The notes beneath the pieces are model-generated. The model ran no database searches. It was not told the origin of the DNA and saw only the letters and a program-made list of their open reading frames with translations. 10,047 bases of DNA, taken from IMG/VR virus record IMGVR_UViG_2706794662_000010; one strand, written 5' to 3'. The stretch's first letter is position 1. The number at the start of each line of letters is the position of its first letter. Shown piece by piece: positions 1 through 10,047 of this stretch. The position numbers were made by a program, and so were the translations under genes. Source of the DNA: a virus (taxonomy: Duplodnaviria > Heunggongvirae > Uroviricota > Caudoviricetes).

Positions 1-311
1 GCACCGCCGTTGCCGCGAATAGACTCGCCACCCCAAGAAATATTAATGGGGTTCCCTTTGACGGGACGCAGGACATAAACATCACTTCTGGTATAACACA
101 GCAGGATGCGGATTCCCGATATATCCAGGATATCAGGCTGGGAGCAGAGAACAGGCAGGTAATGTACGGTGGGGCATATTACTCTGCGTACGGTAATGTT
201 ATGGCAGGCCTGCAGATTGACAGTAAAGTTGATGCTTCAAACGATTTTATAGCATTCAGACCCCTGCAAAAATTAGTCGGAGGTACATGGATTACGGTAT
301 CTCAGTTATAA
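1..311 (+). CDS. Tail fibre protein, C-terminal (variable) part; 5' end lies upstream of the window
   Basis: Open frame 3..311 (stop TAA 309-311) with no start in window. Translation ends ...YGGAYYSAYGNVMAGLQIDSKVDASNDFIAFRPLQKLVGGTWITVSQL. It sits directly upstream of a tail-fibre assembly gene, and its C-terminal motif (RPLQ.L..G.W.T) recurs in the inverted cassette at 916-1058. Confidence 0.6.
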   Translation, partial: TAVAANRLATPRNINGVPFDGTQDINITSGITQQDADSRYIQDIRLGAENRQVMYGGAYYSAYGNVMAGLQIDSKVDASNDFIAFRPLQKLVGGTWITVSQL

Positions 312-362
312 ATAGTCAGTAAATAATATATTTTAAAACAGATTTATTTCCAGGAGGATTTT

Positions 363-884
363 ATGGAACTAAAAAATATAACCCGTTATTATCCTGAAAA
401 TATGCCATATGGTAATAATGTTCAGTATTTCCAGAGTGAAGATGGTAAGGATTTCTACGAATCCCTGCCATTATTCACCAAAAAATATAAACTTTGCATA
501 ACACCTGACAGCGGCGTTATCTGCTCAATATCACAGGACGCCTCGGCGCTGTATCCTGCGGGGTTTTCTGTGGTTGAGGTCGATGAACTCCCTGAAGGCA
601 CGGATATTTCAGGAAACTGGAAGTTTGATAATGGCATAATCTCCCGTATTCCGGTTAACTACGCAAGAAAACTGGAAGCAATGCGCCAGTCATATCTTAA
701 TCAGGCATATGAAAAAATTAATGACTGGAGAACGGAGCTACAACTGGGCACCATCAGCGATGAAGACAGAGCAGCACTTACCCAATGGATGGCATACATC
801 AGTCAGGTGAAGAAAATGGAACTACCCGCCATTAAAACAGAAGCTGAATTTAACGCCATTAAATGGCCTGAGCAGCCACAGTAA
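363..884 (+). CDS. tfa: Tail fibre assembly chaperone (Tfa / Mu U-like)
   Basis: 173-aa ORF with AGGAGG RBS at 351-356, 6 nt before the ATG. C-terminal region (...DEDRAALTQWMAYISQVKKMELPAIKTEAEFNAIKWPEQPQ) resembles the conserved C-terminus of phage tail-fibre assembly proteins, and it lies immediately 3' of a fibre gene. Confidence 0.75.
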   Translation: MELKNITRYYPENMPYGNNVQYFQSEDGKDFYESLPLFTKKYKLCITPDSGVICSISQDASALYPAGFSVVEVDELPEGTDISGNWKFDNGIISRIPVNYARKLEAMRQSYLNQAYEKINDWRTELQLGTISDEDRAALTQWMAYISQVKKMELPAIKTEAEFNAIKWPEQPQ

Positions 885-887
885 TAA

Positions 888-907
888 AGAAGGCCGGAAG
901 GCCTTCT
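888..907. terminator. Perfect hairpin AGAAGGCC-GGAA-GGCCTTCT between convergent genes; likely bidirectional terminator
   Basis: 8-bp GC-rich stem with 4-nt loop, 3 nt after the tfa stop and 9 nt before the stop of the minus-strand fibre cassette; flanked by A/T-rich sequence on both sides. Confidence 0.5.
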
Positions 908-915
908 GAATATCA

Positions 916-1058
916 TTATATACTTGCAGCCGTCACCCATGCTCCATTTAACAGATACTGCAACGGCCGGTAATACACGCCGCCGACGTTATCTGCCGTA
1001 TTCTTACCGACATCCTGTACTTTAATTCCGGTAAGAACATTGCCGCCCCCCAGATTCA
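916..1058 (-). CDS. Alternative tail-fibre C-terminal cassette (S'-like), inverted relative to the upstream fibre gene; 5' part runs into the N-run
   Basis: Minus-strand frame ending at stop 916-918 encodes ...NLGGGNVLTGIKVQDVGKNTADNVGGVYYRPLQYLLNGAWVTAASI. This shares the terminal motif YRPLQyLlnGaWvT with the plus-strand fibre end (FRPLQKLVGGTWIT). Maximum size is about 118 codons before the invertase start region. Confidence 0.55.
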
Positions 1059-1326
1059 NNNNNNNNNNNNNNNNNNNNNNNNNNNNNNNNNNNNNNNNNN
1101 NNNNNNNNNNNNNNNNNNNNNNNNNNNNNNNNNNNNNNNNNNNNNNNNNNNNNNNNNNNNNNNNNNNNNNNNNNNNNNNNNNNNNNNNNNNNNNNNNNNN
1201 NNNNNNNNNNNNNNNNNNNNNNNNNNNNNNNNNNNNNNNNNNNNNNNNNNNNNNNNNNNNNNNNNNNNNNNNNNNNNNNNNNNNNNNNNNNNNNNNNNNN
1301 NNNNNNNNNNNNNNNNNNNNNNNNNN
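1059..1326. other. Run of 268 N (masked or unsequenced bases)
   Basis: Directly visible in the sequence. It covers the 5' part of the inverted fibre cassette, the expected invertase promoter and crossover site, and the invertase N-terminus. Confidence 1.
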
Positions 1327-1850
1327 TACAAAGAAATGCGCTGGAATGTGCAGGATGTGAGCTGTTTTTCGAAGACAGAATAAGCGGTAAGACAAGGGAG
1401 CGTCCCGGACTTAAACGCGCATTAAAGCGACTCCGGCCAGGGGATACCCTGCTGGTCTGGAAACTGGATCGCCTTGGACGCAGTATGCAGCACCTTGTCC
1501 TTTTAACAGAAGAACTCCGGCAACGCGGCGTTAACTTCCGCAGCATTACGGACAATATTGATACATCCACTCCCATGGGACGTTTCTTTTTCCATATAAT
1601 GGGCGCGCTGGCGGAAATGGAGCGGGAACTCATTATTGAACGTACACGCGCGGGTCTTGCTGCTGCCCGTGCTCAGGGGCGTCATGGCGGCAGACCTCAG
1701 AAACTGACAGAGAAAGAGCGGGAGCAAATCGCCCGTTTGCTGGCTAATGGCGAGTCCCGTAAACAAATCGCACTGATATTTGATATTGGCCTTTCCACCC
1801 TTTATCGTTATTTTCCTGCCTCACCAGCTCCGTCACCAAAAGTACCGTGA
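1327..1850 (+). CDS. Serine DNA invertase, Gin/Pin/Cin/Hin family (visible C-terminal ~173 codons; start masked, estimated near 1278)
   Basis: Frame beginning at 1329 reads QRNALECAGCELFFEDRISGKTRERPGLKRALKRLRPGDTLLVWKLDRLGRSMQHLVLLTEELRQRGVNFRSITDNIDTSTPMGRFFFHIMGALAEMERELIIERTRAGLAAARAQGRHGGRPQKLTEKEREQIARLLANGESRKQIALIFDIGLSTLYRYF..., stop 1848-1850. Shows the resolvase/invertase core (DRLGRS, MGRFFFH, GALAEMEREL) and a C-terminal HTH; near-colinear with Gin/Pin as recalled. Confidence 0.9.
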
Positions 1851-1935
1851 CGCTTTTTTGAATTTCCGCAAAACACATATTTTTCAGCGGTCGCTATTCT
1901 GACTCTGTTTAATTCAGAAACAGGCAGAAAAGACG

Positions 1936-3990
1936 ATGTCAGACTCCAAGTGGAAAATGCTCTCCGCCATGCCCGGAGAGTTTTCAGTCAAGGTTGCCGG
2001 TGGCACGGTGGCATTTATTGAAAGCCCTTTCCGCCCTTCGGGTAATAAAGGGGGGATCACCTTCGCAGACTGCGTGATCCGCTTCAGCACGAAAGAGCCA
2101 TTATGGGTAATGCCGGTATCCGGTAATCCCAGTGCAGAAATCACCAGTTCAGGCGTGACTGGCATCATTCCAATCACATCTGACGTGGCCGGAACGCTCA
2201 CGCCCTCCGACTGGAATGCACCGGATAACGCCGGGCCTTCCGGTAGCACGAATGGCAGCAGTTCAGAGCCGGAATATTACTTTGTTGTCATTCTCGCGGG
2301 TCAGTCAAATGGCATGGCCTACGGCGAGGGGCTGCCGTTACCGGATTCGTTTGACCGCCCGGACCCACGCATTAAGCAACTGGCACGCCGCAGTACGGTA
2401 ACGCCCAACGGTACGTCGTGTACATACAACGACATCATTCCGGCAGACCACTGCCTGCATGATGTTCAGGATATGAGCGGGATAAACCACCCGAAAGCTG
2501 ATCTGGCAAAAGGCCAGTACGGGACTGTCGGTCAGGGGTTGCATATTGCCAAAAAACTGCTTCCCTATATCCCACAGAATGCCGGGATACTTCTGGTGCC
2601 CTGTTGTCGTGGCGGGTCAGCATTCACCACTGGAGCCGACGGCTCATTCAGTGAGGCCAGCGGTGCTTCCGCTGATTCTTCACGCTGGGGGGCCGGTAAA
2701 CCTCTGTATCAGGACCTGGTAAGCCGCACCAAAGTCGCGCTGGCGAAAAACCCGAAAAACAAACTTCTGGCTGTGGTCTGGATGCAGGGAGAGGCAGACC
2801 TTGCCTCAGGAAGCCAGCAGCATAATAGTTTATTCACGGCCATGGTTCAGCAGTTCAGAACTGACCTGGCTCCGCTTGCTGCGCAGTGCGTGAGTGGAAA
2901 TGCCACCACGGTGCCGTGGATTTGCGGTGATACCACGTATTACTGGAAAAACGCTGGCACCGATAAATATGAGGCAGTATACGGTGGCTACAAAGGCAAG
3001 GAAGCACAGAAAATTTTCTTTGTACCGTTCCTGACGGATGAGAATGGACAGAGCACGCCAACGAATGCTCCGGCGGAAGACCCGGATATTGTGGCTGTCG
3101 GGTATTACGGTGCAGCATCCCGAACCCAGGGCAGTTTTGTTTCGACACAGCGTGACAGCCATTTCAGCTCATGGGCACGCAGGGGCGTCATTTCAGACCG
3201 TCTGGCCTCAGCTATTATGCTCCATGCAGGGCGCACGGCTGAACTGATGCGCGGGCAGACCGTGACACCACCGGATGAGAAGCCGTCACCTGATACACCA
3301 TCAAAACCGTCCACGCCACCCGCAGACACCACGACGATGAGTACGCTATTTGCTTACCGGGCATCTGAGTCTGAAGGACGGTTGACACCACAGGGTTGGG
3401 CTGCCGGAGGTGGCAAGGCTCAAATCGTGGATGATGCCGGAGCCAGCGGGGGTAAGGCAATGAAACTGACCAAGGAAACAGGAAGAGCCCCCTGGTACCT
3501 TGAGCATGATGCTGGTAATGGTGCGGACCTGCTGGGTAAAGGTGGTCTTGTCAGTTGTCGTTTTAAACTCGATGGCGCGCTTACGGCTAATCAGTACGCA
3601 CTGGCGCTGTACTGGCCGGTTTCTGCCCTGCCGCAAGGGGTTACTCTGGAAGGAAATGCCGGTCATAACCTGCTGGCATCGTTCTACGTACAGAGCGATG
3701 CCACAGACCTTAACGTGATGTATCACAAAGGAAACACGGCGCAGAACACGAAGCTGGGGTCATTCGGCGCATTTAATAACGAATGGCATACGCTGGGCTT
3801 CCGTTTTGCCGGTAACAACAGTATTGAGGTGACGCCGGTCATTGATGGTAAGGACGGGACACCATTCATGCTGTCGCAGTCTCCGGTCGGCACGTTTACG
3901 GCAGACAAGTTGCGCGTGACCGATATCACTAAAAATGCGACTTACCCGGTACTGATTGACAGTATCGTGGTGGAAGTGAATAACGCGTAA
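1936..3990 (+). CDS. SASA/SGNH-family carbohydrate O-acetylesterase with Pro/Thr linker and C-terminal lectin-like domain (prophage NanS-p-like sialate O-acetylesterase candidate)
   Basis: 684-aa uninterrupted ORF. Contains the GQSN motif (codons 2299-2310, candidate catalytic Ser at 2305-2307) and a downstream WMQGEAD block typical of the SASA/DUF303 esterase family. A TPPDEKPSPDTPSKPSTPPADTTT linker lies at about 3262-3335, followed by a ~215-aa beta-rich domain. No signal peptide. Weak RBS; ATG at 1957 is an alternative start. Confidence 0.65.
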   Translation: MSDSKWKMLSAMPGEFSVKVAGGTVAFIESPFRPSGNKGGITFADCVIRFSTKEPLWVMPVSGNPSAEITSSGVTGIIPITSDVAGTLTPSDWNAPDNAGPSGSTNGSSSEPEYYFVVILAGQSNGMAYGEGLPLPDSFDRPDPRIKQLARRSTVTPNGTSCTYNDIIPADHCLHDVQDMSGINHPKADLAKGQYGTVGQGLHIAKKLLPYIPQNAGILLVPCCRGGSAFTTGADGSFSEASGASADSSRWGAGKPLYQDLVSRTKVALAKNPKNKLLAVVWMQGEADLASGSQQHNSLFTAMVQQFRTDLAPLAAQCVSGNATTVPWICGDTTYYWKNAGTDKYEAVYGGYKGKEAQKIFFVPFLTDENGQSTPTNAPAEDPDIVAVGYYGAASRTQGSFVSTQRDSHFSSWARRGVISDRLASAIMLHAGRTAELMRGQTVTPPDEKPSPDTPSKPSTPPADTTTMSTLFAYRASESEGRLTPQGWAAGGGKAQIVDDAGASGGKAMKLTKETGRAPWYLEHDAGNGADLLGKGGLVSCRFKLDGALTANQYALALYWPVSALPQGVTLEGNAGHNLLASFYVQSDATDLNVMYHKGNTAQNTKLGSFGAFNNEWHTLGFRFAGNNSIEVTPVIDGKDGTPFMLSQSPVGTFTADKLRVTDITKNATYPVLIDSIVVEVNNA

Positions 3991-4005
3991 GCAGGATAAA
4001 AAAAT

Positions 4006-4038
4006 GCCGCCGGTAAGGGAAAACAAGAAACCGGCGGC
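4006..4038. terminator. Hairpin GCCGCCGGT-(15 nt)-ACCGGCGGC flanked by A-tracts; possible terminator, orientation ambiguous
   Basis: 9-bp GC stem 16 nt after the esterase stop. The plus strand has A-runs on both sides, so the minus strand has U-tracts; it would be more efficient for minus-strand transcripts. Confidence 0.35.
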
Positions 4039-4134
4039 AAAAAGATCGTTATATCCAAAGCAAAAAATGCAGTGCACCTTTTTACCTAACAGATATTACC
4101 GGTGTCAACACCATGTCAATAATTGGGAGGGATA

Positions 4135-4317
4135 ATGACATTTTTACAGCTTATTTTATTGTATTTCTGCACGGCAGTATGTGCGTTATATCTGGTGAGT
4201 GGTGGTTATAAGGCCATCAGAAATTATGTTCGCCGCAAAATTGAGGACGCAGCAGCTGAAAAACTCAGTAAAACAGCGCAGGTAACTCCGCTCCCAAAAG
4301 ACCCGACCCAGCCCTGA
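4135..4317 (+). CDS. Small membrane protein (one predicted N-terminal TM helix, charged C-terminal tail), unknown function
   Basis: ATG at 4135 preceded by GGGAGG (4125-4130). MTFLQLILLYFCTAVCALYLVSGGYKAIRNYVRRK... has a hydrophobic N-terminus followed by a basic stretch. The track ORF from TTG 4123 has no RBS. Confidence 0.5.
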   Translation: MTFLQLILLYFCTAVCALYLVSGGYKAIRNYVRRKIEDAAAEKLSKTAQVTPLPKDPTQP

Positions 4318-4352
4318 TTGCAGGGCTTTATTCCCGCATAAGGAGGATATAC

Positions 4353-4607
4353 ATGCCAGAAATTAAAGGCACCGTCACTGAAGACCTGGTAAAACAGGCA
4401 CTGTATTCCGGTGAAGTAAATAAGTTGCTGAAAGCGCAGGTCCGCAAGGATTTTGAGGCACAAATCGACACTTACGTTGATGAAGTGCTGGCAAAACTTA
4501 TTGGGCCAGCAGTTGCGGCCAGTGATGCTGATAATGAGCCGAAAACCGACGCGCAGCCAGAGCAACCAGACCCGGCTCAGCCCGGAACTGACAGTACCAT
4601 GATGTAA
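4353..4607 (+). CDS. Small acidic protein (84 aa), unknown function
   Basis: Strong RBS AGGAGG (4341-4346) 6 nt before the ATG. About 16 acidic versus 8 basic residues, with a Pro/Gln/Asp-rich C-terminus. Followed by a hairpin at 4613-4640. Confidence 0.6.
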   Translation: MPEIKGTVTEDLVKQALYSGEVNKLLKAQVRKDFEAQIDTYVDEVLAKLIGPAVAASDADNEPKTDAQPEQPDPAQPGTDSTMM

Positions 4608-4612
4608 CAATA

Positions 4613-4640
4613 CAAACCGGTGGTGTCCTCTGCCGGTTTG
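4613..4640. terminator. Hairpin CAAACCGG-(12 nt)-CCGGTTTG downstream of the small acidic ORF; weak candidate terminator
   Basis: 8-bp stem 6 nt after the stop codon at 4605-4607; no clear U-tract. Confidence 0.3.
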
Positions 4641-4774
4641 ACACTAATGAAAACATCTTTGCCGCTATCCAGCCATATGTAATCGCTGGATAGTATTTCG
4701 TATTCAGAAATATAGCTGCTTATGGAGCAGTCAATCCTGCTTCCCCATCCGGGCAGGCAAATGAACCGGTATCA

Positions 4775-5068
4775 TTAGTCCGATTCACGCTTTTGTAGAA
4801 TCGTTCCCAGAATGCTATACAGCTCATTAGCCTGTTGCTCCATCATTGAGACGGAGGCTATACGGTGCAAAGTGATTTCAGGAGGTGGCACACCTCCATC
4901 TTCTTGCTGTGGAGGAAAAACATAAGATTTAATAAAAAAGTTGAAGCATATGAACTCTCCCGCACTCGAACTGTATTTGCAGGCATCTGAATAATCGGAA
5001 AAATAATCATTATAGATTTCCGCATTTTCAATCATTTTTCGATTTCTCGTCGTTACATGATTGTCCAT
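4775..5068 (-). CDS. Hypothetical protein (97 aa), divergently transcribed from com-mom
   Basis: Minus-strand ORF with AAGAGG RBS 5 nt upstream of the ATG (complement of 5074-5079). No recognisable family. Upstream is a 250-bp AT-rich intergenic region shared with the com promoter region. Confidence 0.5.
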   Translation of the reverse strand: MDNHVTTRNRKMIENAEIYNDYFSDYSDACKYSSSAGEFICFNFFIKSYVFPPQQEDGGVPPPEITLHRIASVSMMEQQANELYSILGTILQKRESD

Positions 5069-5256
5069 AGCAGCCTCTTACGCTGGCAATTAACCAATTG
5101 ACTTCTATAAATTAGTTGATTTGTTTGCTTTGCGGTATTCAAATGTACAATCATTCAGCACTTATGCGTTACAGCACCGTTTAAAATTAGTGATCAAACT
5201 CATAAATTTTCGCTAATGACATTTCGTGTTATTTGTTGTATCAATTAAATAAATCA

Positions 5257-5281
5257 AATCGATCGTTTTTGTCGATCGATT
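5257..5281. promoter_or_regulatory. Palindrome AATCGATCG-TTTTTGT-CGATCGATT carrying two GATC (Dam) sites upstream of com; candidate methylation-sensitive operator
   Basis: Perfect 9-bp inverted repeat with 7-nt spacer; GATC at 5261-5264 and 5274-5277, each inside a CGATCG hexamer; 44 bp upstream of the com start. Mu mom transcription is known to be controlled through clustered Dam sites upstream of com-mom. Confidence 0.4.
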
Positions 5282-5324
5282 GAGTGATAAAGATATCAAC
5301 AACAAAGCAGGAGGTTATGCGGCC

Positions 5325-5525
5325 ATGTATCGAAACATACGGTGCCGACATTGTAACAAGCTACTGGCACGAGCCAGCTTCAGTTATCTGGAAGTTAAAT
5401 GTCCGCGCTGTAAAACCCTCAATCAAATCACATCTCAGAGCGCCACAGAGCACCCCACATACACAAGGAAATCCTGTCGTGGGGAACAGAAAGCAAGTTA
5501 CATCCCGTATCATCAGCACGCCTGA
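5325..5525 (+). CDS. com: Com-like zinc-finger translational activator of mom
   Basis: ATG 5325 with AGGAGG (5309-5314) upstream. [35 protein letters not shown]... matches the Mu Com pattern IRCxxCNKLL...CPRCK (CxxC...CxxC finger) as recalled. Small (66 aa) and overlaps the next ORF in another frame, as in Mu. Confidence 0.8.
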
Positions 5526-6216
5526 ACTTATTCACTATAACGACAATATCGTCGGTTATGGCTCCCGTGAGTTACGGGTTGAGACAATAAGTTGCTGGCT
5601 GGCCCGGCTGGTCGTCGTCAATAAACATTACAGCCATCGTTTCGTAAATAATTCCTACCTTCATCTGGGCATATTTTCAGAACGGGAGCTGGTTGGCGTA
5701 ATGCAATGGGGTTATGCCCTTAATCCAAACAATGGTGCACGCGTCGTAACTGGCACGCAGAACCGCGAATATATGGAGCTTAACCGGTTATGGCTGCATG
5801 ACTGTATGCCGAGAAACTCCGAATCAAGGGCAATCAGTTACGCGCTCAAACTAATCAGACAACTTTATCCGCAGGTGCAGTGGGTTCAGTCGTTTGCAGA
5901 TGAGCGTTGTGGCTGTCTTGGTGTCGTGTACCAGGCAAGCAATTTTGATTATGTAGGCAGTCATGAAACAACATTCTATGAACTTGATGGCGAGTGGTAT
6001 CACGAGATTTGCAAGAATGCAATCAAACGAGGAGGACAGCGAGGTGAACATCTGCGGACTAATATCGACAGAGCCAGTGTTCATAAATTCCGTCAGTTTC
6101 GTTACATCCGGTTTCTGGACAAGAGAGCCAGAAAACGCCTTAACACAAAGCTATTCAAAGTCCAGCCTTACCCAAAACCACAAACAGTTAAAACTGGTTT
6201 GAAAGAGAGTGAATGA
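5479..6216 (+). CDS. mom: Mom-like DNA-modification protein (anti-restriction adenine modification); start codon uncertain
   Basis: Long ORF in the +1 frame relative to com, overlapping the com 3' end. Candidate GTG start at 5479 with AAGGA 9 nt upstream, giving about 245 aa. Assignment rests on the com coupling and the Mu-like gene order invertase-com-mom; the body was not matched to Mom from memory. Confidence 0.6.
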
Positions 6217-6252
6217 ACGCTTAAAAACTCATTCTAAAACTCAAAAGAAAAG

Positions 6253-6292
6253 CGCCGATTTAGTATCAAATAAGTTGCGTATCGGCGTTTTT
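6253..6292 (+). terminator. Candidate terminator after mom: CGCCGAT-(21 nt)-ATCGGCG followed by TTTTT
   Basis: 7-bp inverted repeat 6253-6259 / 6281-6287 followed by T5 (6288-6292); the loop is unusually long. Confidence 0.35.
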
Positions 6293-6295
6293 CAG

Positions 6296-6327
6296 CGGTA
6301 TCAAATGAAATGCAAATCGGTATCAAA
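6296..6327. repeat. Two exact direct copies of CGGTATCAAA 22 bp apart, plus a third GTATCAAA at 6263-6270, at the module boundary
   Basis: Exact 10-mers at 6296-6305 and 6318-6327, between the mom stop and the point where H homology ends. Possible transposase or recombinase binding iterons. Confidence 0.5.
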
Positions 6328-7046
6328 AAAATCGCCGCGCTATACGCTGCCAGACCCAGACGGGCATTTTCCCGGTCATCCCATGCGCCCTGAAGGTTGG
6401 CCCGGAAAGAGGAGGTTTTACCGCGGCGCTGGCTCCGACTCTGGTACCACTGCCATTTTTTATCCGCCTCATCAAATGCCTTCTGCGCACTGGCGAGCAT
6501 ATCCGCTGAGGATTCCGGACGACCGATATCCAGAATGGCATCCCACATCGATTTGAATGCCTTCCCTGTTTTATCCGCCCAGGTCTCCAGTGTTCCCATG
6601 TTTTCTTTCAGGCGACGGGTCTGCTCATCAAAGCCTTTCGTGGCGATATCGTTCGCCGCCTGCAATGCCCCGGCCTCGTCTCCGGAACGCTGCAGCTGTG
6701 CAACATACGCAATCTGCTCTGCCGTCACGTTACGGAACTGGCGCGCCATCGCCATCAGTCCCGACGTCGGGTCAGTGGTCAGCTTCCCGAAGGCTTCAGC
6801 GACTTTATCCACCTCCACACCGGATGCAGACGCAAAACGCGCGACACTCTGGTTGATGGCATCAAACTGTTCACCACCACGCACACCGGCATTCACCAGG
6901 GCTGCCAGTGACTCTCTCGCCTGGTTAAACGTCAGCCCTGCTGCCTGCCCGGCTCTTGAGAGAGTCAGCATACGATCGGCAGTCAGTCCGGACTGATTAC
7001 CGGAAAGAACCAGGGTTTTATTAAACGCTGAAAGCGTGGAATCTCC

Positions 7047-7319
7047 NNNNNNNNNNNNNNNNNNNNNNNNNNNNNNNNNNNNNNNNNNNNNNNNNNNNNN
7101 NNNNNNNNNNNNNNNNNNNNNNNNNNNNNNNNNNNNNNNNNNNNNNNNNNNNNNNNNNNNNNNNNNNNNNNNNNNNNNNNNNNNNNNNNNNNNNNNNNNN
7201 NNNNNNNNNNNNNNNNNNNNNNNNNNNNNNNNNNNNNNNNNNNNNNNNNNNNNNNNNNNNNNNNNNNNNNNNNNNNNNNNNNNNNNNNNNNNNNNNNNNN
7301 NNNNNNNNNNNNNNNNNNN
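7047..7319. other. Run of 273 N (masked or unsequenced bases)
   Basis: Directly visible; hides the T stop and the H start. Confidence 1.
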
Positions 7320-7717
7320 TCATCCACCATGACATCCGCCACATCCGCAGACGATAAAATATCGCGCCCTCCGTCCCCACCGAACCGGACGCCTCCGGCA
7401 AGTCCTGCCGCTTTCTGCATCAGCATTTTGTCCTCATCCGGCCTCTCCACCTGCTCTTCCTCATGCCGGGGGACAAGCAGACTGAAATCAGAGGGATGCA
7501 TATCCGGATCGCAAAAAAACAGGCTGAGTACAGCGTACGTCAGCCCGGAAAAATGCATATCCAGCTGGGTATCCTGAAAATAATGCGTGCGGTAAAAACG
7601 GCGCCAGTCGGCATATTCGGTGGATGTCATCCCGGCAAGCATGGCGCGCCAGTCGGGTCTCCCCATCTCACGCGCCAGTCTGAGGGCAAAGTTCAGCTCG
7701 CCGTCGAAGACTTTCCC
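7320..7717 (-). CDS. T: Tail assembly chaperone T region, expressed as G-T fusion by -1 frameshift; 3' end masked
   Basis: Frame -1 relative to G, from the slippery site downward: GKVFDGELNFALRLAREMGRPDWRAMLAGMTSTEYADWRRFYRTHYFQDTQLDMHFSGLTYAVLSLFFCDPDMHPSDF...MLMQKAAGLAGGVRFG..., lambda gpT-like as recalled. The track ORF tail at 6983-7046 is an off-frame reading of H, not T. Confidence 0.8.
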
Positions 7718-8124
7718 GCAGAAAAATCATCATCAGTCAGCGTGTTATTTTTCGCCACTTCAGTAATATCAGTATCCGGACGAACAGCTTCGATCATCCC
7801 GGACAGGCACAACACCACGTCTTCCGCCCGGGCAATGGCATCGGCAGGCCAGGTGGTGAGCACTTCCTGCTCTATCTTCATCACGGCCTCATTCATTGAC
7901 GGTGACTGCGTTTTCTGTGGATGGTTATGCCACAGGGACATCGCCACCAGAAACGCGCCGGTTCTGACGAGATCTTCCACGCTTACCTGCAGGTTGCCGC
8001 TGGATTCTGCCTGTTCTGCACGCCGTTTCAGGAGGGCAAGATGCTCGATACGCTGCAGCGCAGACAATTCGGAAAGCGTGACAGACACACCGTTATATTC
8101 AAATTGTTCTGTTTTCAGAAACAT
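7693..8124 (-). CDS. G: Tail assembly chaperone G
   Basis: 143-aa ORF MFLKTEQFEYNGVSVTLSELSALQRIEHLALLKRRAEQAES...AMSLWHNHPQKTQ..., near-colinear with lambda gpG as recalled; sits between V and T. Confidence 0.9.
   Translation of the reverse strand: MFLKTEQFEYNGVSVTLSELSALQRIEHLALLKRRAEQAESSGNLQVSVEDLVRTGAFLVAMSLWHNHPQKTQSPSMNEAVMKIEQEVLTTWPADAIARAEDVVLCLSGMIEAVRPDTDITEVAKNNTLTDDDFSAGKSSTAS
7711..7717 (-). promoter_or_regulatory. Programmed -1 ribosomal frameshift slippery heptamer G GGA AAG (G-T fusion)
   Basis: Minus-strand GGGAAAG, in-frame as G|GGA|AAG in the G frame, 16-22 nt upstream of the G stop (7693-7695). Same motif and position as the lambda G-T frameshift site. Confidence 0.75.
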
Positions 8125-8137
8125 GTATTACCTCCGT

Positions 8138-8890
8138 TTACCCTGCAGCGCCCGCTTCAGTAACGGTGACTTCAGCCACTGCGGCGAACTGACCATTTCC
8201 GCTCACCACAGGGATCTGCACCTTACCTGTCGCCACGCCGTTTACCGTAATTGTCATATCTTTCACACTAATGGTGGCTTTCGACGGATCGGCGGAAACC
8301 GCTCTGAACGTCTTGTCGGTTGCACTTTCCGGCTCAAAAGAAACCGTCAGGGTGGTTGTTTTCCCTTTTGCCACCGTACCGGATGTCGGCGTCACCTTAA
8401 TCGCACTGACCGGCGTAATTTTGCTGCGTTCTTCCGCTACAGAAGGTTTACCCACGTTAGTGACTTTCACCGTGCGGGTGATCACTTCTTTCGCCGTCAC
8501 GGCCTTACCGATACTGCTGACCCAGCCACGAAACACATCCACCGTGCCATTCGGAAAACGGATTTTATAGGCCCGGACATCGCCGCTTTCAAACCAGCCT
8601 ATAAGCCCTTTCTGGCCTTCCTCTCCCGGTTTCCAGGCCAGCGTAAAACTGGTATCACCTGCAGATTTCTGCCCCTGCCCGGTCGCGCTCCAGTCCGCGT
8701 CTTCATCATCCAGGTAGTTATCATCATAGGATTCAGCCGTCATCTCGCCCGGCGTCAGATCCTTCACCTTAGCCAGTCGCTGCCAGTCATCGTCTGACAA
8801 CGGGTTTGCATAAGCATCAGCCTTGCCGTTGTAAACCCACAGAGTGGTACCGGCACCTTTTACCGGCTCCAGGGGATTTGGTGTTGCCAT
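8138..8890 (-). CDS. V: Major tail tube protein V with C-terminal Ig-like domain
   Basis: 250-aa ORF ...[58 protein letters not shown]...[42 protein letters not shown]..., lambda gpV-like as recalled. Confidence 0.92.
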
Positions 8891-8897
8891 ATCGTCC

Positions 8898-9293
8898 TCA
8901 CATCTCGTATGTAATGGAATAAGTCAGATCCGCAGAGCTCCATAACGCCATATCGTCATCACGACGATACTCATAGCCCTGCGTAACCATCGTGGTAATC
9001 AGTCCTGCCAGTGCAGGGATCGCAGTCATCGCCGGATAAATCCGGCTTTCCATCCACTGATCGAGCTCCGAATCAGGTACCTGTGCCGGTAAAAACACCT
9101 CAATATGCAGTGTGGCCCGCCAGGTATCTGCATCCAGCTCTTCACCGGTATACTCTGCATCCGTCAGATAAACCGCGATCGCAGGAAAATCCTCTTCGTC
9201 AAAAACAACGGGGCGACCATCAAACAGCGTCGCCCCGTGTTCATGCTGCTCGAGTGCATCCAGCACTGCGGCACGAATGTCAGTGTGTTTCAT
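8898..9293 (-). CDS. U: Tail terminator protein U
   Basis: 131-aa [57 protein letters not shown]...[13 protein letters not shown], lambda gpU-like; 4-nt start/stop overlap with Z. Confidence 0.92.
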
Positions 9294-9865
9294 CGTTTTA
9301 TCGCAATCCTCAGTTGTTGTTTCAGCGCGTATGCCAGTTCTTTAGGCAGGCGTTCACGCCGGATACGGTCAACATTCTCATCAAATGCCTGTTTCAGTGG
9401 GGCCGCCATCGGGATTTTCACCACCTGAATGGGAAGGCGATTACGCTTTTTCCTTCCCTTGTCGTCATTGCCCTCCTCATATCTGGCCTGGGGAAGACGT
9501 TGCATAACATGCCAGCGCCCATTATTTAATCGCTGGATAAATGCCCGCTGATAACGATGCTGACCGGCTTTGAGTATGCTGTTCGGACGACGCCCCAGCA
9601 TTCTGATCCCCAGCTTAATCACAGGGAGATCACCGCGGTTAACGATAATTCTGGCATTCGGATTTCTGACCGTCGCCCGTTTCAGTCTGGACCGTTCCTT
9701 TACCAGTTTCCGTCTCACCCTGGTTTCCCGGGCAACCTGTGACGAAGACTGATTAATCGCCGTTGTGGCCACGCGGTTAATGGTCATTGCAGAAGCAGCC
9801 GGAATGGCGTTTTTACGAACCCGGTTCAGATTGTCAATCGCCTGATCAAGCCCTTTTATCGCCAT
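9290..9865 (-). CDS. Z: Tail completion protein Z
   Basis: 191-aa ORF MAIKGLDQAIDNLNRV...RETRVRRKLVKERSRLKRATV...GRWHVMQRL...VVKIPMAAPL...[25 protein letters not shown], lambda gpZ-like. Confidence 0.92.
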   Translation of the reverse strand: MAIKGLDQAIDNLNRVRKNAIPAASAMTINRVATTAINQSSSQVARETRVRRKLVKERSRLKRATVRNPNARIIVNRGDLPVIKLGIRMLGRRPNSILKAGQHRYQRAFIQRLNNGRWHVMQRLPQARYEEGNDDKGRKKRNRLPIQVVKIPMAAPLKQAFDENVDRIRRERLPKELAYALKQQLRIAIKR

Positions 9866-9879
9866 AATTCACCCTGCGT

Positions 9880-10047
9880 TTATCGTCGCCGGTTAACTGC
9901 GGGTGGTTGCCCACGGTTGAGCCAGAGATAACAGCTGCCCCCGTCATCCGGAGATGTCAGCGCCAGTGATATAAGACGGTAATTCGCCATTTGGATTGTC
10001 CGCTCCACCCAACATGTTGTTTCCTTAAGGTTCTCACACCAGAAAGG
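9880..10047 (-). CDS. FII: Head-tail joining protein FII, C-terminal 55 codons (5' end beyond window)
   Basis: Minus-strand frame ending at stop (complement of 9880-9882) reads ...CWVERTIQMANYRLISLALTSPDDGGSCYLWLNRGQPPAVNRRR. The terminal SPDDGGSC.LWL.RG.PPAVNRRR matches the gpFII C-terminus as recalled; upstream similarity is weaker, with a possible short insertion. Confidence 0.6.
   Translation of the reverse strand, partial: PFWCENLKETTCWVERTIQMANYRLISLALTSPDDGGSCYLWLNRGQPPAVNRRR

What the first reader, a model, noticed from the sequence alone, without database searches (positions are those of the whole stretch)
6217..6360. Module junction: truncated lambda-like tape-measure gene abuts the end of the com-mom module, with iterated CGGTATCAAA motifs
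On the minus strand an H-like frame is colinear with lambda gpH down to ...WDDRENARLGLAA (codon at about 6345-6347), then reads 36 unrelated codons to a stop at 6234. The C-terminal half of H and all distal tail genes (M, L, K, I, J) that should follow are missing, and the next gene is mom on the opposite strand. The about 125 bp between the mom stop (6216) and the end of H homology holds two exact CGGTATCAAA copies 22 bp apart (6296-6305, 6318-6327), a third GTATCAAA (6263-6270) and a GCGTTTTTC element (complement GAAAAACGC, resembling the CGAAAA core of MuA binding sites at Mu ends). Because invertase followed by com-mom is the gene order at the right end of phage Mu, the simplest hypothesis is that this is the attR-like terminus of a Mu-like transposable prophage that inserted into gene H of a resident lambdoid prophage. 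A deletion or inversion scar is the alternative. Either way the lambdoid tail module is inactivated, although FII-Z-U-V-G-T look intact, which suggests a recent event.
Basis: partly seen in the sequence, partly recalled or inferred. Interest (0 to 1): 0.7.

Follow-up and report, generated by a model that had tools for sequence, protein, structure and literature searches.

The report
Mu-like prophage end inside lambdoid tail gene
The junction is the right-hand end of a well-known transposable (Mu-like, Sp18-type) prophage that jumped into the tape-measure gene of an older, already decayed lambda-like prophage, which is an ordinary, previously documented event.

Summary
Homology to lambdoid tape-measure gene H starts at window 6345. 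Everything to its left (1-6344) is the right arm of an Sp18-type Mu-like prophage.

- In 233 of 5,426 complete E. coli genomes this arm ends at exactly the same base (…GCGCTATA) next to unrelated genes.
- Complete relatives carry repressor, Ner-like, MuA-like and MuB-like genes through to gin, com and mom.
- The "CGGTATCAAA" iterations are the family's end repeats. TTTGATAC(C/T) lies 18, 40 and 75 bp from the right terminus and 18, 113 and 165 bp from the left. These are presumably transposase-binding sites, arranged like Mu R1-R3 and L1-L3.
- An "empty site" exists: CP044151.1 carries the same decayed lambdoid prophage (100% and 99.93% identical flanks) with an intact 857-aa H followed by M, L, K, I and J.

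Two of its details do not fit this family. The termini are T(G/A)…TA, not TG…CA. The flanking duplication is 4 bp in 7 of 7 complete copies, not 5 bp.

I could not find the other end of this particular copy, so a simple insertion is inferred rather than shown. Sp18-like phages inside prophages, including tape-measure genes, are already published. Low interest; already known.

The parts
1..6344 (+). Right arm of an Sp18-type Mu-like transposable prophage. It holds the tail-fibre invertible segment, gin-like invertase (partly masked), a SASA/DUF6645 esterase, DUF1378, DUF826, com and mom.
   Evidence: 99.96-100% identical to L006, L008, L009 and L012-L014, with segment 1-1058 inverted. Pfam assignments. 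Gene context of ten relatives.
5325..5525 (+). com (66 aa zinc-ribbon translational activator of mom)
   Evidence: PF10122 Zn_ribbon_Com, E=1.3e-12. Coordinates transferred from the annotated L002 gene.
5479..6216 (+). mom (245 aa, GTG start)
   Evidence: PF25680 Mom, E=6.5e-78. 78% identical to phage Mu Mom.
6217..6344 (.). Non-coding right end (attR) of the Mu-like element, 128 bp from the mom stop to the terminus
   Evidence: Identical in L002 and the window. Every match from 235 E. coli records stops at 6344. Twelve right junctions share ...GCGCTATA and then diverge. Mu has 115 bp between the mom stop and its right end.
6319..6327 (-). End repeat R1 (TTTGATACC), 18 nt from the terminus
   Evidence: The left end has the same motif 18 nt from its terminus.
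6297..6305 (-). End repeat R2 (TTTGATACC), 40 nt from the terminus and 22 bp from R1
6262..6270 (-). End repeat R3 (TTTGATACT), 75 nt from the terminus
   Evidence: Conserved in the 83%-identical relative LC727881.
6247..6293 (+). 13-bp inverted repeat (GAAAAGCGCCGAT / ATCGGCGTTTTTC) enclosing R3. It may be a terminator-like hairpin after mom.
   Evidence: RNA fold -23.2 kcal/mol, z=-3.6. The simple terminator scan does not call it because the loop is 21 nt.
6343..6344 (+). Terminal dinucleotide TA-3' of the element
   Evidence: The A at 6344 is invariant in 12 right junctions. The intact H has C at that position.
6345..6348 (.). CGCT, the predicted right-hand copy of the 4-bp target duplication
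   Evidence: Inferred from 7 of 7 complete relatives that have exact 4-bp duplications. Not verifiable for this copy.
6234..6344 (-). 36 codons plus a stop, read from H into the Mu end (fusion tail of the truncated H')
6345..7046 (-). Codons 142-375 of lambdoid tape-measure gene H (the 5' part continues under the N-mask)
   Evidence: 100% identical to L029 and 99.86% to L004. PF06791 TMP_2. The C-terminal domain PF09718 present in intact relatives is absent.
7320..9954 (-). Remaining lambdoid tail module: T (5' part), G, V, U, Z and the 3' stub of FII
   Evidence: Window 7320-10047, which contains this stretch, is 99.93% identical to L029.
9955..10047 (.). Terminal 93 bp of an IS21-family element (TGTCAG...) that truncates FII. 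It is not part of the Mu junction but bears on 'intact tail module'.
   Evidence: Homology to ordinary lambdoid prophages stops at 9954. L029 continues into istA/istB.

Best explanation
Window 6344/6345 is a transposase-made joint. An Sp18-type Mu-like temperate phage integrated by DDE transposition into codon 375/376 of gene H (tape measure) of a resident, already degraded lambdoid prophage.

Inferred mechanism, by analogy with Mu:
- A MuA-like transposase binds the three TTTGATAC(C/T) repeats at each end (R1-R3 here at 6319-6327, 6297-6305 and 6262-6270).
- It pairs the ends and nicks at the 3' terminal TA (right) and CA or TA (left).
- With a MuB-like ATPase that delivers the target, it joins the ends to staggered positions in H.
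- Gap repair leaves a short duplication, which is 4 bp in this family and is predicted to be CGCT here.

Consequences: H is cut to 375 residues plus a 36-residue nonsense tail. The distal tail genes M-L-K-I-J are displaced by the length of the phage (about 37-40 kb) or lost.

What is shown: the exact breakpoint, the canonical terminus, the end-repeat architecture, the family's transposition genes in relatives, and the empty site.
What is inferred: transposase binding to the repeats, the 4-bp duplication for this copy, and that the rest of H lies at the other end.
For: - The breakpoint is at 6345 on the H side.
- The element side ends at 6344 in every one of 235 matching E. coli records. These lie next to unrelated genes such as citF, flgL, fimD, bcsA and xdhA.
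- The complete copy L002 carries repressor, Ner-like, transposase (Pfam Mu DNA-binding and Mu-transpos_C; 23% identical and colinear with MuA), MuB-like ATPase, Gam, Mor, Mu-type head and tail genes, com and mom.
- The end repeats are symmetric: 18, 40 and 75 nt from the right terminus and 18, 113 and 165 nt from the left. The motif is enriched 20-fold in the window. The last 60 bp are the same in a relative that is otherwise 83% identical, and homology runs back to about 95 bp from the terminus.
- Seven of seven complete copies have exact 4-bp flanking duplications. GenBank record LC727881 annotates the same.
- L029 is the empty site. It has the same prophage, including the IS21 truncation, with an intact 857-aa H followed by M, L, K, I and J.
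- Independent precedents exist. O157 strain Z1815 has the same phage type 750 bp further down H, with the H remainder and M-J beyond the left end. Strain 2015C-3108 has a left end in another tape-measure gene. LC727881 and LC727895 are Stx phages carrying inserted Mu-like phages.
- Literature: Sp18 is packaged and not circularised, like Mu (PMC2669165). Its integration sites differ between strains (PMC7430833). Six of 10 Sp18-like phages in CC119 sit inside mobile elements (PMC10132054).
Against: - The window holds only the right arm. The left end, the transposase genes and the 3' part of H of this copy were not seen.
- The junction sequence and the predicted left junction are absent from genome contigs, viral contigs, metagenome contigs and complete E. 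coli genomes.
- The predicted H' and H-remainder proteins are absent from the protein collection.
- The termini and duplication length differ from Mu.
- Transposase binding to the repeats is untested.
Confidence: 0.9

Rival explanations
1. The joint was made by the same transposase, but as part of an intramolecular replicative transposition or a later recombination between two Mu-like copies. That would be a Mu-mediated inversion or deletion. In that case the 3' part of H and M-J are not directly beyond this copy's left end. They would be inverted or elsewhere next to a second copy, or deleted.
For: Several genomes carry 2-4 copies whose left and right ends do not pair up locally. Examples are TOE17 and JE86-ST05, whose right ends lie at citF and whose left ends lie elsewhere. 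Internally deleted copies also exist (L008 and L014; DLI.5a). The distal tail genes are not in the window.
Against: In 7 of 7 copies examined at both ends the insertion is simple, with a 4-bp duplication. The analogous H insertion in Z1815 is simple.
Confidence: 0.12
2. A deletion or illegitimate-recombination scar unrelated to transposition happened to fuse com-mom DNA to H.
For: Only that the distal tail genes are missing from the window. The host prophage also shows other decay, namely the IS21 element at 9955.
Against: The break on the Mu side coincides to the base with the terminus used in hundreds of independent insertions. A random deletion endpoint would hit that base with a probability of about 1 in 10^4.
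Confidence: 0.01
3. An assembly chimera joined two unrelated contigs at 6344/6345.
For: The source could not be found. The window ends inside an IS, which suggests a draft assembly.
Against: The two sides share no repeat at the joint that could mislead an assembler. The joint lies exactly at a biological terminus. The same kind of joint is seen in closed genomes.
Confidence: 0.02

Closest known systems
Prophage Sp18 of E. coli O157:H7 Sakai and its relatives (Sp18-type Mu-like transposable prophages of E. coli and Shigella)
   Same: - Same gene order and end sequences. The right end is 95% identical in O157 strains and 99.9-100% identical in other E. coli and in the copy on record HE616528.1 (L010).
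- Variable integration sites.
- The invertible tail-fibre segment differs from Mu's (PMC2669165).
- Carries the SASA/DUF6645 esterase, DUF1378 and DUF826 genes between gin and com.
   Different: Nothing of substance. This copy sits at a site (H codon 375/376) not present in the 5,426 complete E. coli genomes searched. Its G segment is in the opposite orientation to ten reference copies.
Bacteriophage Mu right end (attR: gin-com-mom, R1-R3 MuA sites)
   Same: - Gene order is gin ... com-mom, followed by a roughly 115-130 bp non-coding end.
- Mom is 78% identical.
- There are three end repeats per end. R1 and R2 are 22 bp apart, and L1 is far from L2 and L3 (the Mu architecture is from established knowledge).
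- MuA-like and MuB-like genes are present in complete relatives.
   Different: - The transposase is only 23% identical to MuA.
- The end repeats are TTTGATAC(C/T), not the Mu consensus. There is no significant nucleotide similarity to the Mu ends, except a 9-mer GAAAAACGC at a different position.
- The termini are T(G/A)...TA instead of TG...CA.
- The flanking duplication is 4 bp instead of 5 bp.
- About 3.3 kb of extra genes lie between gin and com.
Documented Mu-like phage insertions inside lambdoid or Stx prophages (LC727881, LC727895; O157 strains Z1815 and Z1816; strain 2015C-3108; CC119 STEC study PMC10132054)
   Same: An Sp18-like phage is inserted in a resident prophage, in three cases in a tape-measure gene. 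A 4-bp duplication is annotated by the depositors.
   Different: The position within H, or the tape-measure allele, differs. Those cases are in closed sequences where both ends are visible.

Membership tests
Mu-like transposable prophage, right end (Sp18 type) | Right-end gene order invertase ... com, mom followed by a short non-coding terminus | tested here: met
   Pfam Resolvase/HTH_7, Zn_ribbon_Com and Mom. Mom is 78% identical to Mu Mom. There are 128 bp from the mom stop to the terminus, against 115 bp in Mu.
Mu-like transposable prophage, right end (Sp18 type) | The same exact terminus is found next to many unrelated target sequences, which is the signature of transposition | tested here: met
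   All 235 matching records end at window 6344. Twelve junctions read ...GCGCTATA and then diverge.
Mu-like transposable prophage, right end (Sp18 type) | The element encodes a MuA-type DDE transposase and a MuB-type ATPase | tested here: met
   Met in complete relatives whose right arm is 99.7-100% identical (L002): PF02316 plus PF09299, colinear with MuA at E=2e-14, and PF09077 Phage-MuB_C. For this copy these genes lie outside the window.
Mu-like transposable prophage, right end (Sp18 type) | Multiple transposase-binding repeats in inverted orientation at both ends | tested here: met
   TTTGATAC(C/T) lies 18, 40 and 75 nt from the right terminus and 18, 113 and 165 nt from the left. The motif is enriched in the window. 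Protein binding itself is not testable here.
Mu-like transposable prophage, right end (Sp18 type) | 5'-TG...CA-3' termini (Mu sensu stricto) | tested here: not met
   The right terminus is ...TA-3' in all copies. The left is 5'-TG or 5'-TA. This is a feature of Mu itself, not of the Sp18 type.
Mu-like transposable prophage, right end (Sp18 type) | 5-bp target-site duplication (Mu sensu stricto) | tested here: not met
   Seven of seven complete relatives have an exact 4-bp duplication: GACG, CCAG, ACTG, TACG, TAGA, TGTG and CATC. No 5-bp reading fits them all. LC727881 annotates 4 bp.
Mu-like transposable prophage, right end (Sp18 type) | Left end of this copy with the H remainder and a matching duplication | not testable with these tools
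   The source genome was not found. The patterns are absent from all three collections and the predicted proteins are absent from the protein collection.
Lambda gpH-type tail tape-measure protein | Colinear with full-length H and carries the TMP_2 N-terminal domain, downstream of G and T | tested here: met
   PF06791. Codons 142-375 are 100% identical to the 857-aa H of L029. G lies upstream, with T's 5' part before the mask.
Lambda gpH-type tail tape-measure protein | Complete protein with the C-terminal domain (PF09718), followed by M, L, K, I and J | tested here: not met
   The frame leaves H after codon 375 and stops 36 codons later. All ten ordinary relatives have an 828-859 aa H followed by M, L and further distal tail genes.

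The most novel reading that the evidence does not exclude
Sp18-type Mu-like phages may hit resident prophage DNA, especially long tail genes such as the tape measure, more often than chance. That would let them act as disablers of competing prophages. Related to this, their divergent transposase would use a 4-bp rather than Mu's 5-bp stagger with TA-3' ends, which appears not to have been studied biochemically. The evidence here is only suggestive. It consists of three independent tape-measure insertions plus this one, and 6 of 10 copies in mobile elements in one published lineage. AT-rich-target bias or simple tolerance of insertions in dispensable DNA explains it equally well.
Probability: 0.12. 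Interest if true: 0.4.

Novelty: already known. Interest (0 to 1): 0.12.

Why it matters
It mostly matters for annotation. The roughly 10 kb window is two nested prophages, not one odd module junction, and the truncated H is collateral damage of a transposable phage. It illustrates how Mu-like phages break up resident prophages. It also gives a precise definition of the Sp18-type end: the terminus ...GCGCTATA, three TTTGATACC repeats and a 4-bp duplication. Prophage-boundary callers could use that definition. No new biology is implied.

Tried and rejected
- I searched for the exact right junction (ATCGCCGCGCTATACGCTGCCAGACC) and the predicted left junction (GCAGCGTTGCCGCTNNTAACCAGGTG) in genome contigs, viral contigs and metagenome contigs. 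All gave 0 hits.
- I reconstructed the fusion protein H' (411 aa) and the expected H-remainder ORF (476 aa) from two near-identical H alleles. An exact look-up found neither in the collection.
- Contig look-ups with the 684-aa esterase and with G returned only other insertion sites or ordinary intact prophages. They did yield the empty-site relative L029.
- Three accessions guessed for left ends were not in the E. coli collection. DLI.5a turned out to have a shortened copy.
- Aligning the ends to the Mu ends gave no significant similarity beyond one 9-mer, so the idea that GCGTTTTTC is a MuA-core homologue was dropped.
- I considered a real 197-bp deletion in T/H under the N-mask. This cannot be decided. 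The first N-mask is also 67 nt shorter than the stretch in relatives that are 100% identical on both sides of it, so the masks are probably not length-preserving.
- Literature searches for a published statement of the 4-bp duplication found nothing.

Full report
**1. The observation**

Reading the window directly confirms every coordinate in the finding.
- mom ends with TGA at 6214-6216.
- CGGTATCAAA lies at 6296-6305 and 6318-6327. GTATCAAA lies at 6263-6270. GCGTTTTTC lies at 6285-6293.
- On the minus strand the tape-measure frame reads ...WDDRENARLGLAA and then 36 unrelated codons to a stop at 6234-6236.

BLAST of 5900-7040 against 5,426 complete E. coli genomes and 50,697 phage records places the start of H homology at query base 446, which is window 6345, in thousands of records. 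Comparison with intact H genes confirms this. The intact sequence reads ...GCAGCGTTGC|CGCTGCCAGACC..., whereas the window reads ...GCGCTATA|CGCTGCCAGACC.... The break is after codon 375 of an 857-codon H. The motif TTTGATACY occurs three times in the window, all within 6262-6327, against 0.15 expected. None of 200 shuffles reached three.

**2. The left side of the joint**

Window 4700-6344 matches 235 E. coli records (233 genomes), and every match ends at window 6344. The genes beyond that end differ from genome to genome: citF, a diguanylate cyclase, flgL, fimD/papC, yfcC, bcsA, xdhA, elyC and a phage tail-tip gene, among others. Twelve right junctions extracted from fetched loci all read ...ATCGCCGCGCTATA and then diverge at once.

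A complete copy in strain S1-CAM-01-A (L002) splits bcsA. It runs from a repressor and a Ner-like gene, through a 695-aa transposase, an AAA ATPase, Gam, Mor, lysis genes and Mu-type head and tail genes, to an invertible tail-fibre region, a SASA/DUF6645 esterase, DUF1378, DUF826, com and mom.
- The transposase carries the Pfam Mu DNA-binding domain and Mu-transpos_C. It is colinear with MuA at 23% identity.
- The ATPase has the MuB C-terminal domain.
- The window's Mom is 78% identical to Mu Mom, and its Com has the Com zinc ribbon.
- The left-end probe also hits Sakai prophage Sp18, which is annotated as a Mu-like phage.

The window's first 6,344 bases are 99.96-100% identical to ten copies retrieved through the esterase protein, each at a different chromosomal site. 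One of these copies lies on record HE616528.1 (L010). So 1-6344 is the right arm of an Sp18-type Mu-like prophage, and 6344 is its canonical last base.

**3. The iterated motif**

I read both ends of L002 inward from their termini. TTTGATAC(C/T) lies at nucleotides 18, 40 and 75 from the right terminus and at 18, 113 and 165 from the left. The right end of L002 is identical to the window's. The identical distance of the first repeat from each terminus, the 22-bp R1-R2 spacing, and the wide L1-L2 gap mirror the layout of MuA sites R1-R3 and L1-L3 in Mu. The Mu layout is established knowledge and was not tested here.

In a relative whose interior is only about 83% identical (LC727881), the last 60 bp are the same as in the window. 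All three repeats are retained there, and homology runs back to about 95 bp from the terminus. Binding itself is inferred.

The ends show no significant nucleotide similarity to the Mu ends. The only shared string is the 9-mer GAAAAACGC, which lies 13-21 nt from the Mu terminus and 52-60 nt from this one. It does not recur at the left end. In the window that 9-mer is the 3' arm of a 13-bp inverted repeat (6247-6259 and 6281-6293) that encloses R3. The repeat folds at -23.2 kcal/mol with z = -3.6. It may be a terminator-like hairpin after mom, but the simple terminator scan does not call it.

**4. Termini and duplication**

I examined seven complete copies at both ends: S1-CAM-01-A, Z1815, L008, HH35, 23CRST047, CI5 and LC727881.
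- Each begins 5'-T(G/A)TAACCAGGTGAATCATTTGATACC and ends ...CGCCGCGCTATA-3'.
- Each is flanked by an exact 4-bp repeat: GACG, CCAG, ACTG, TACG, TAGA, TGTG and CATC.
- No 5-bp reading fits them all.
- The depositors of LC727881 independently annotate 4-bp "duplication due to insertion of Mu" on both sides.

For the window this predicts that CGCT (6345-6348) is the right-hand copy.

**5. The right side and the empty site**

A contig look-up with the window's G protein returned ten lambdoid prophages. All have G, T and an H of 828-859 aa followed by M, L and further distal tail genes.

One of them, L029 (CP044151.1), is 100% identical to window 6345-7046 and 99.93% identical to 7320-10047. It is the only one that matches the window's last 93 bases. 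Those bases begin TGTCAG and run in L029 into IS21-family istA/istB genes. In both sequences, therefore, an IS21-family element truncates FII at 9954/9955, and the head genes are gone.

L029 is thus the same decayed prophage with an uninterrupted H. It serves as the empty site for this insertion. It follows that the Mu insertion was not what first disabled this lambdoid prophage, and that "FII ... look intact" is incorrect.

**6. Precedents**

- In O157 strains Z1815 and Z1816 the same phage type sits in the H gene of a lambdoid prophage, 750 bp further downstream. The 3' part of H followed by M, L, K, I, J and lom lies directly beyond the Mu-like left end.
- Strain 2015C-3108 has a Mu-like left end abutting another tape-measure gene.
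- Two Stx-phage records carry an annotated inserted Mu-like phage.
- The literature describes Sp18 as apparently intact, packaged and not circularised, like Mu (PMC2669165).
- Mu-like prophages occupy different sites in related O157 strains (PMC7430833).
- In CC119 STEC, 6 of 10 Sp18-like phages are inserted in mobile elements, and several Stx phages are interrupted by them (PMC10132054).

**7. What could not be shown**

The window ends inside the tail-fibre region, so this copy's early genes, its left end and the H remainder are unseen.
- The exact junction and the predicted left junction are absent from the genome, viral and metagenome collections.
- No complete E. coli genome has the insertion at this site.
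- The predicted fusion protein and remainder protein are not in the protein collection.

Hence "simple insertion" is an inference, based on 7 of 7 relatives. About 10-15% remains for a Mu-mediated rearrangement in which the rest of H lies next to another copy or was lost. Genomes with several copies and unpaired ends do exist. A non-transpositional deletion scar is effectively excluded, because the break coincides with the canonical terminus.

The two N-runs (1059-1326 and 7047-7319) are 67 and 197 nt shorter than the homologous stretches in relatives that are 99.8-100% identical on the flanks. The integrity of gin, the crossover site and the T/H overlap therefore cannot be judged.

**8. Verdict**

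This is a nested prophage: an Sp18-type Mu-like phage in gene H of a decayed lambdoid prophage. The phenomenon and the phage family are already described, so novelty is "already known" and interest is low. The only mildly unusual points are two. One is the family's 4-bp duplication and TA-3' termini, which GenBank depositors recognise but which I did not find discussed in the papers searched. The other is a possible bias of these phages toward prophage DNA.

Noticed in passing
window 9955-10047 (and L029 about 2343-4170): The last 93 bases of the window are the end of an IS21-family element (TGTCAGCGCCAG...). It truncates lambdoid gene FII. In the near-identical relative CP044151.1 it continues into istA/istB, and further IS genes replace the head module. 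The window may end at a contig break in an IS.
   Followed up: partly
L002, L001/L003, L008, L016-L021, L036/L037 (ends of Sp18-type prophages); predicted at window 6345-6348: This Mu-like family leaves an exact 4-bp flanking duplication in 7 of 7 copies and has T(G/A)...TA termini, unlike Mu's 5 bp and TG...CA. GenBank record LC727881 annotates the 4 bp. I found no paper that discusses it.
   Followed up: yes
window 1-1058 (boundary hidden under N-run 1059-1326): The tail-fibre segment (Sv C-terminus 162-311 and tail-fibre assembly gene 363-884 on +; alternative Sv' on - from 916) is inverted relative to ten near-identical copies (L005-L014). It has the same orientation as four E. coli genomes. 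Strains FORC_043 and FORC_069 both have the right end next to FimD/PapC but differ in orientation. Only one assembly gene is present for the two alternative fibre ends.
   Followed up: partly
window 1059-1326 and 7047-7319: Both N-runs are shorter than the homologous stretches in relatives that are 99.8-100% identical on the flanks, by 67 nt and 197 nt. The masks are therefore probably not length-preserving. If they are length-preserving, there are real deletions in gin or the crossover site and in the T/H overlap.
   Followed up: partly
window 1936-4607: Between gin and com the phage carries genes typical of the late region of Stx and lambdoid phages. These are a 684-aa SASA/DUF6645 esterase (its SASA and DUF6645 domains also occur in a 617-aa DUF1737-SASA-DUF6645 protein at the start of L029), DUF1378 and DUF826. 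The exact esterase sequence is listed in 4,464 blocks of the assembly collection.
   Followed up: partly
window 4640-5229: The stretch holding the minus-strand 97-aa ORF (4775-5068) is a variable cassette. It has no megablast match in L005, L007 or L001, although the flanks match at 94-99%.
   Followed up: no
L007 14112-15913: In one relative (CP061272.1) an IS21-family element has inserted into the com-mom region of the Mu-like prophage itself.
   Followed up: no
L035 (NZ_CP027307.1 3497351-3500437); row H159: There are further independent cases of Mu-like ends abutting prophage structural genes. One is another tape-measure gene, and one is next to a phage portal gene in O26 strain RM10386.
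   Followed up: partly
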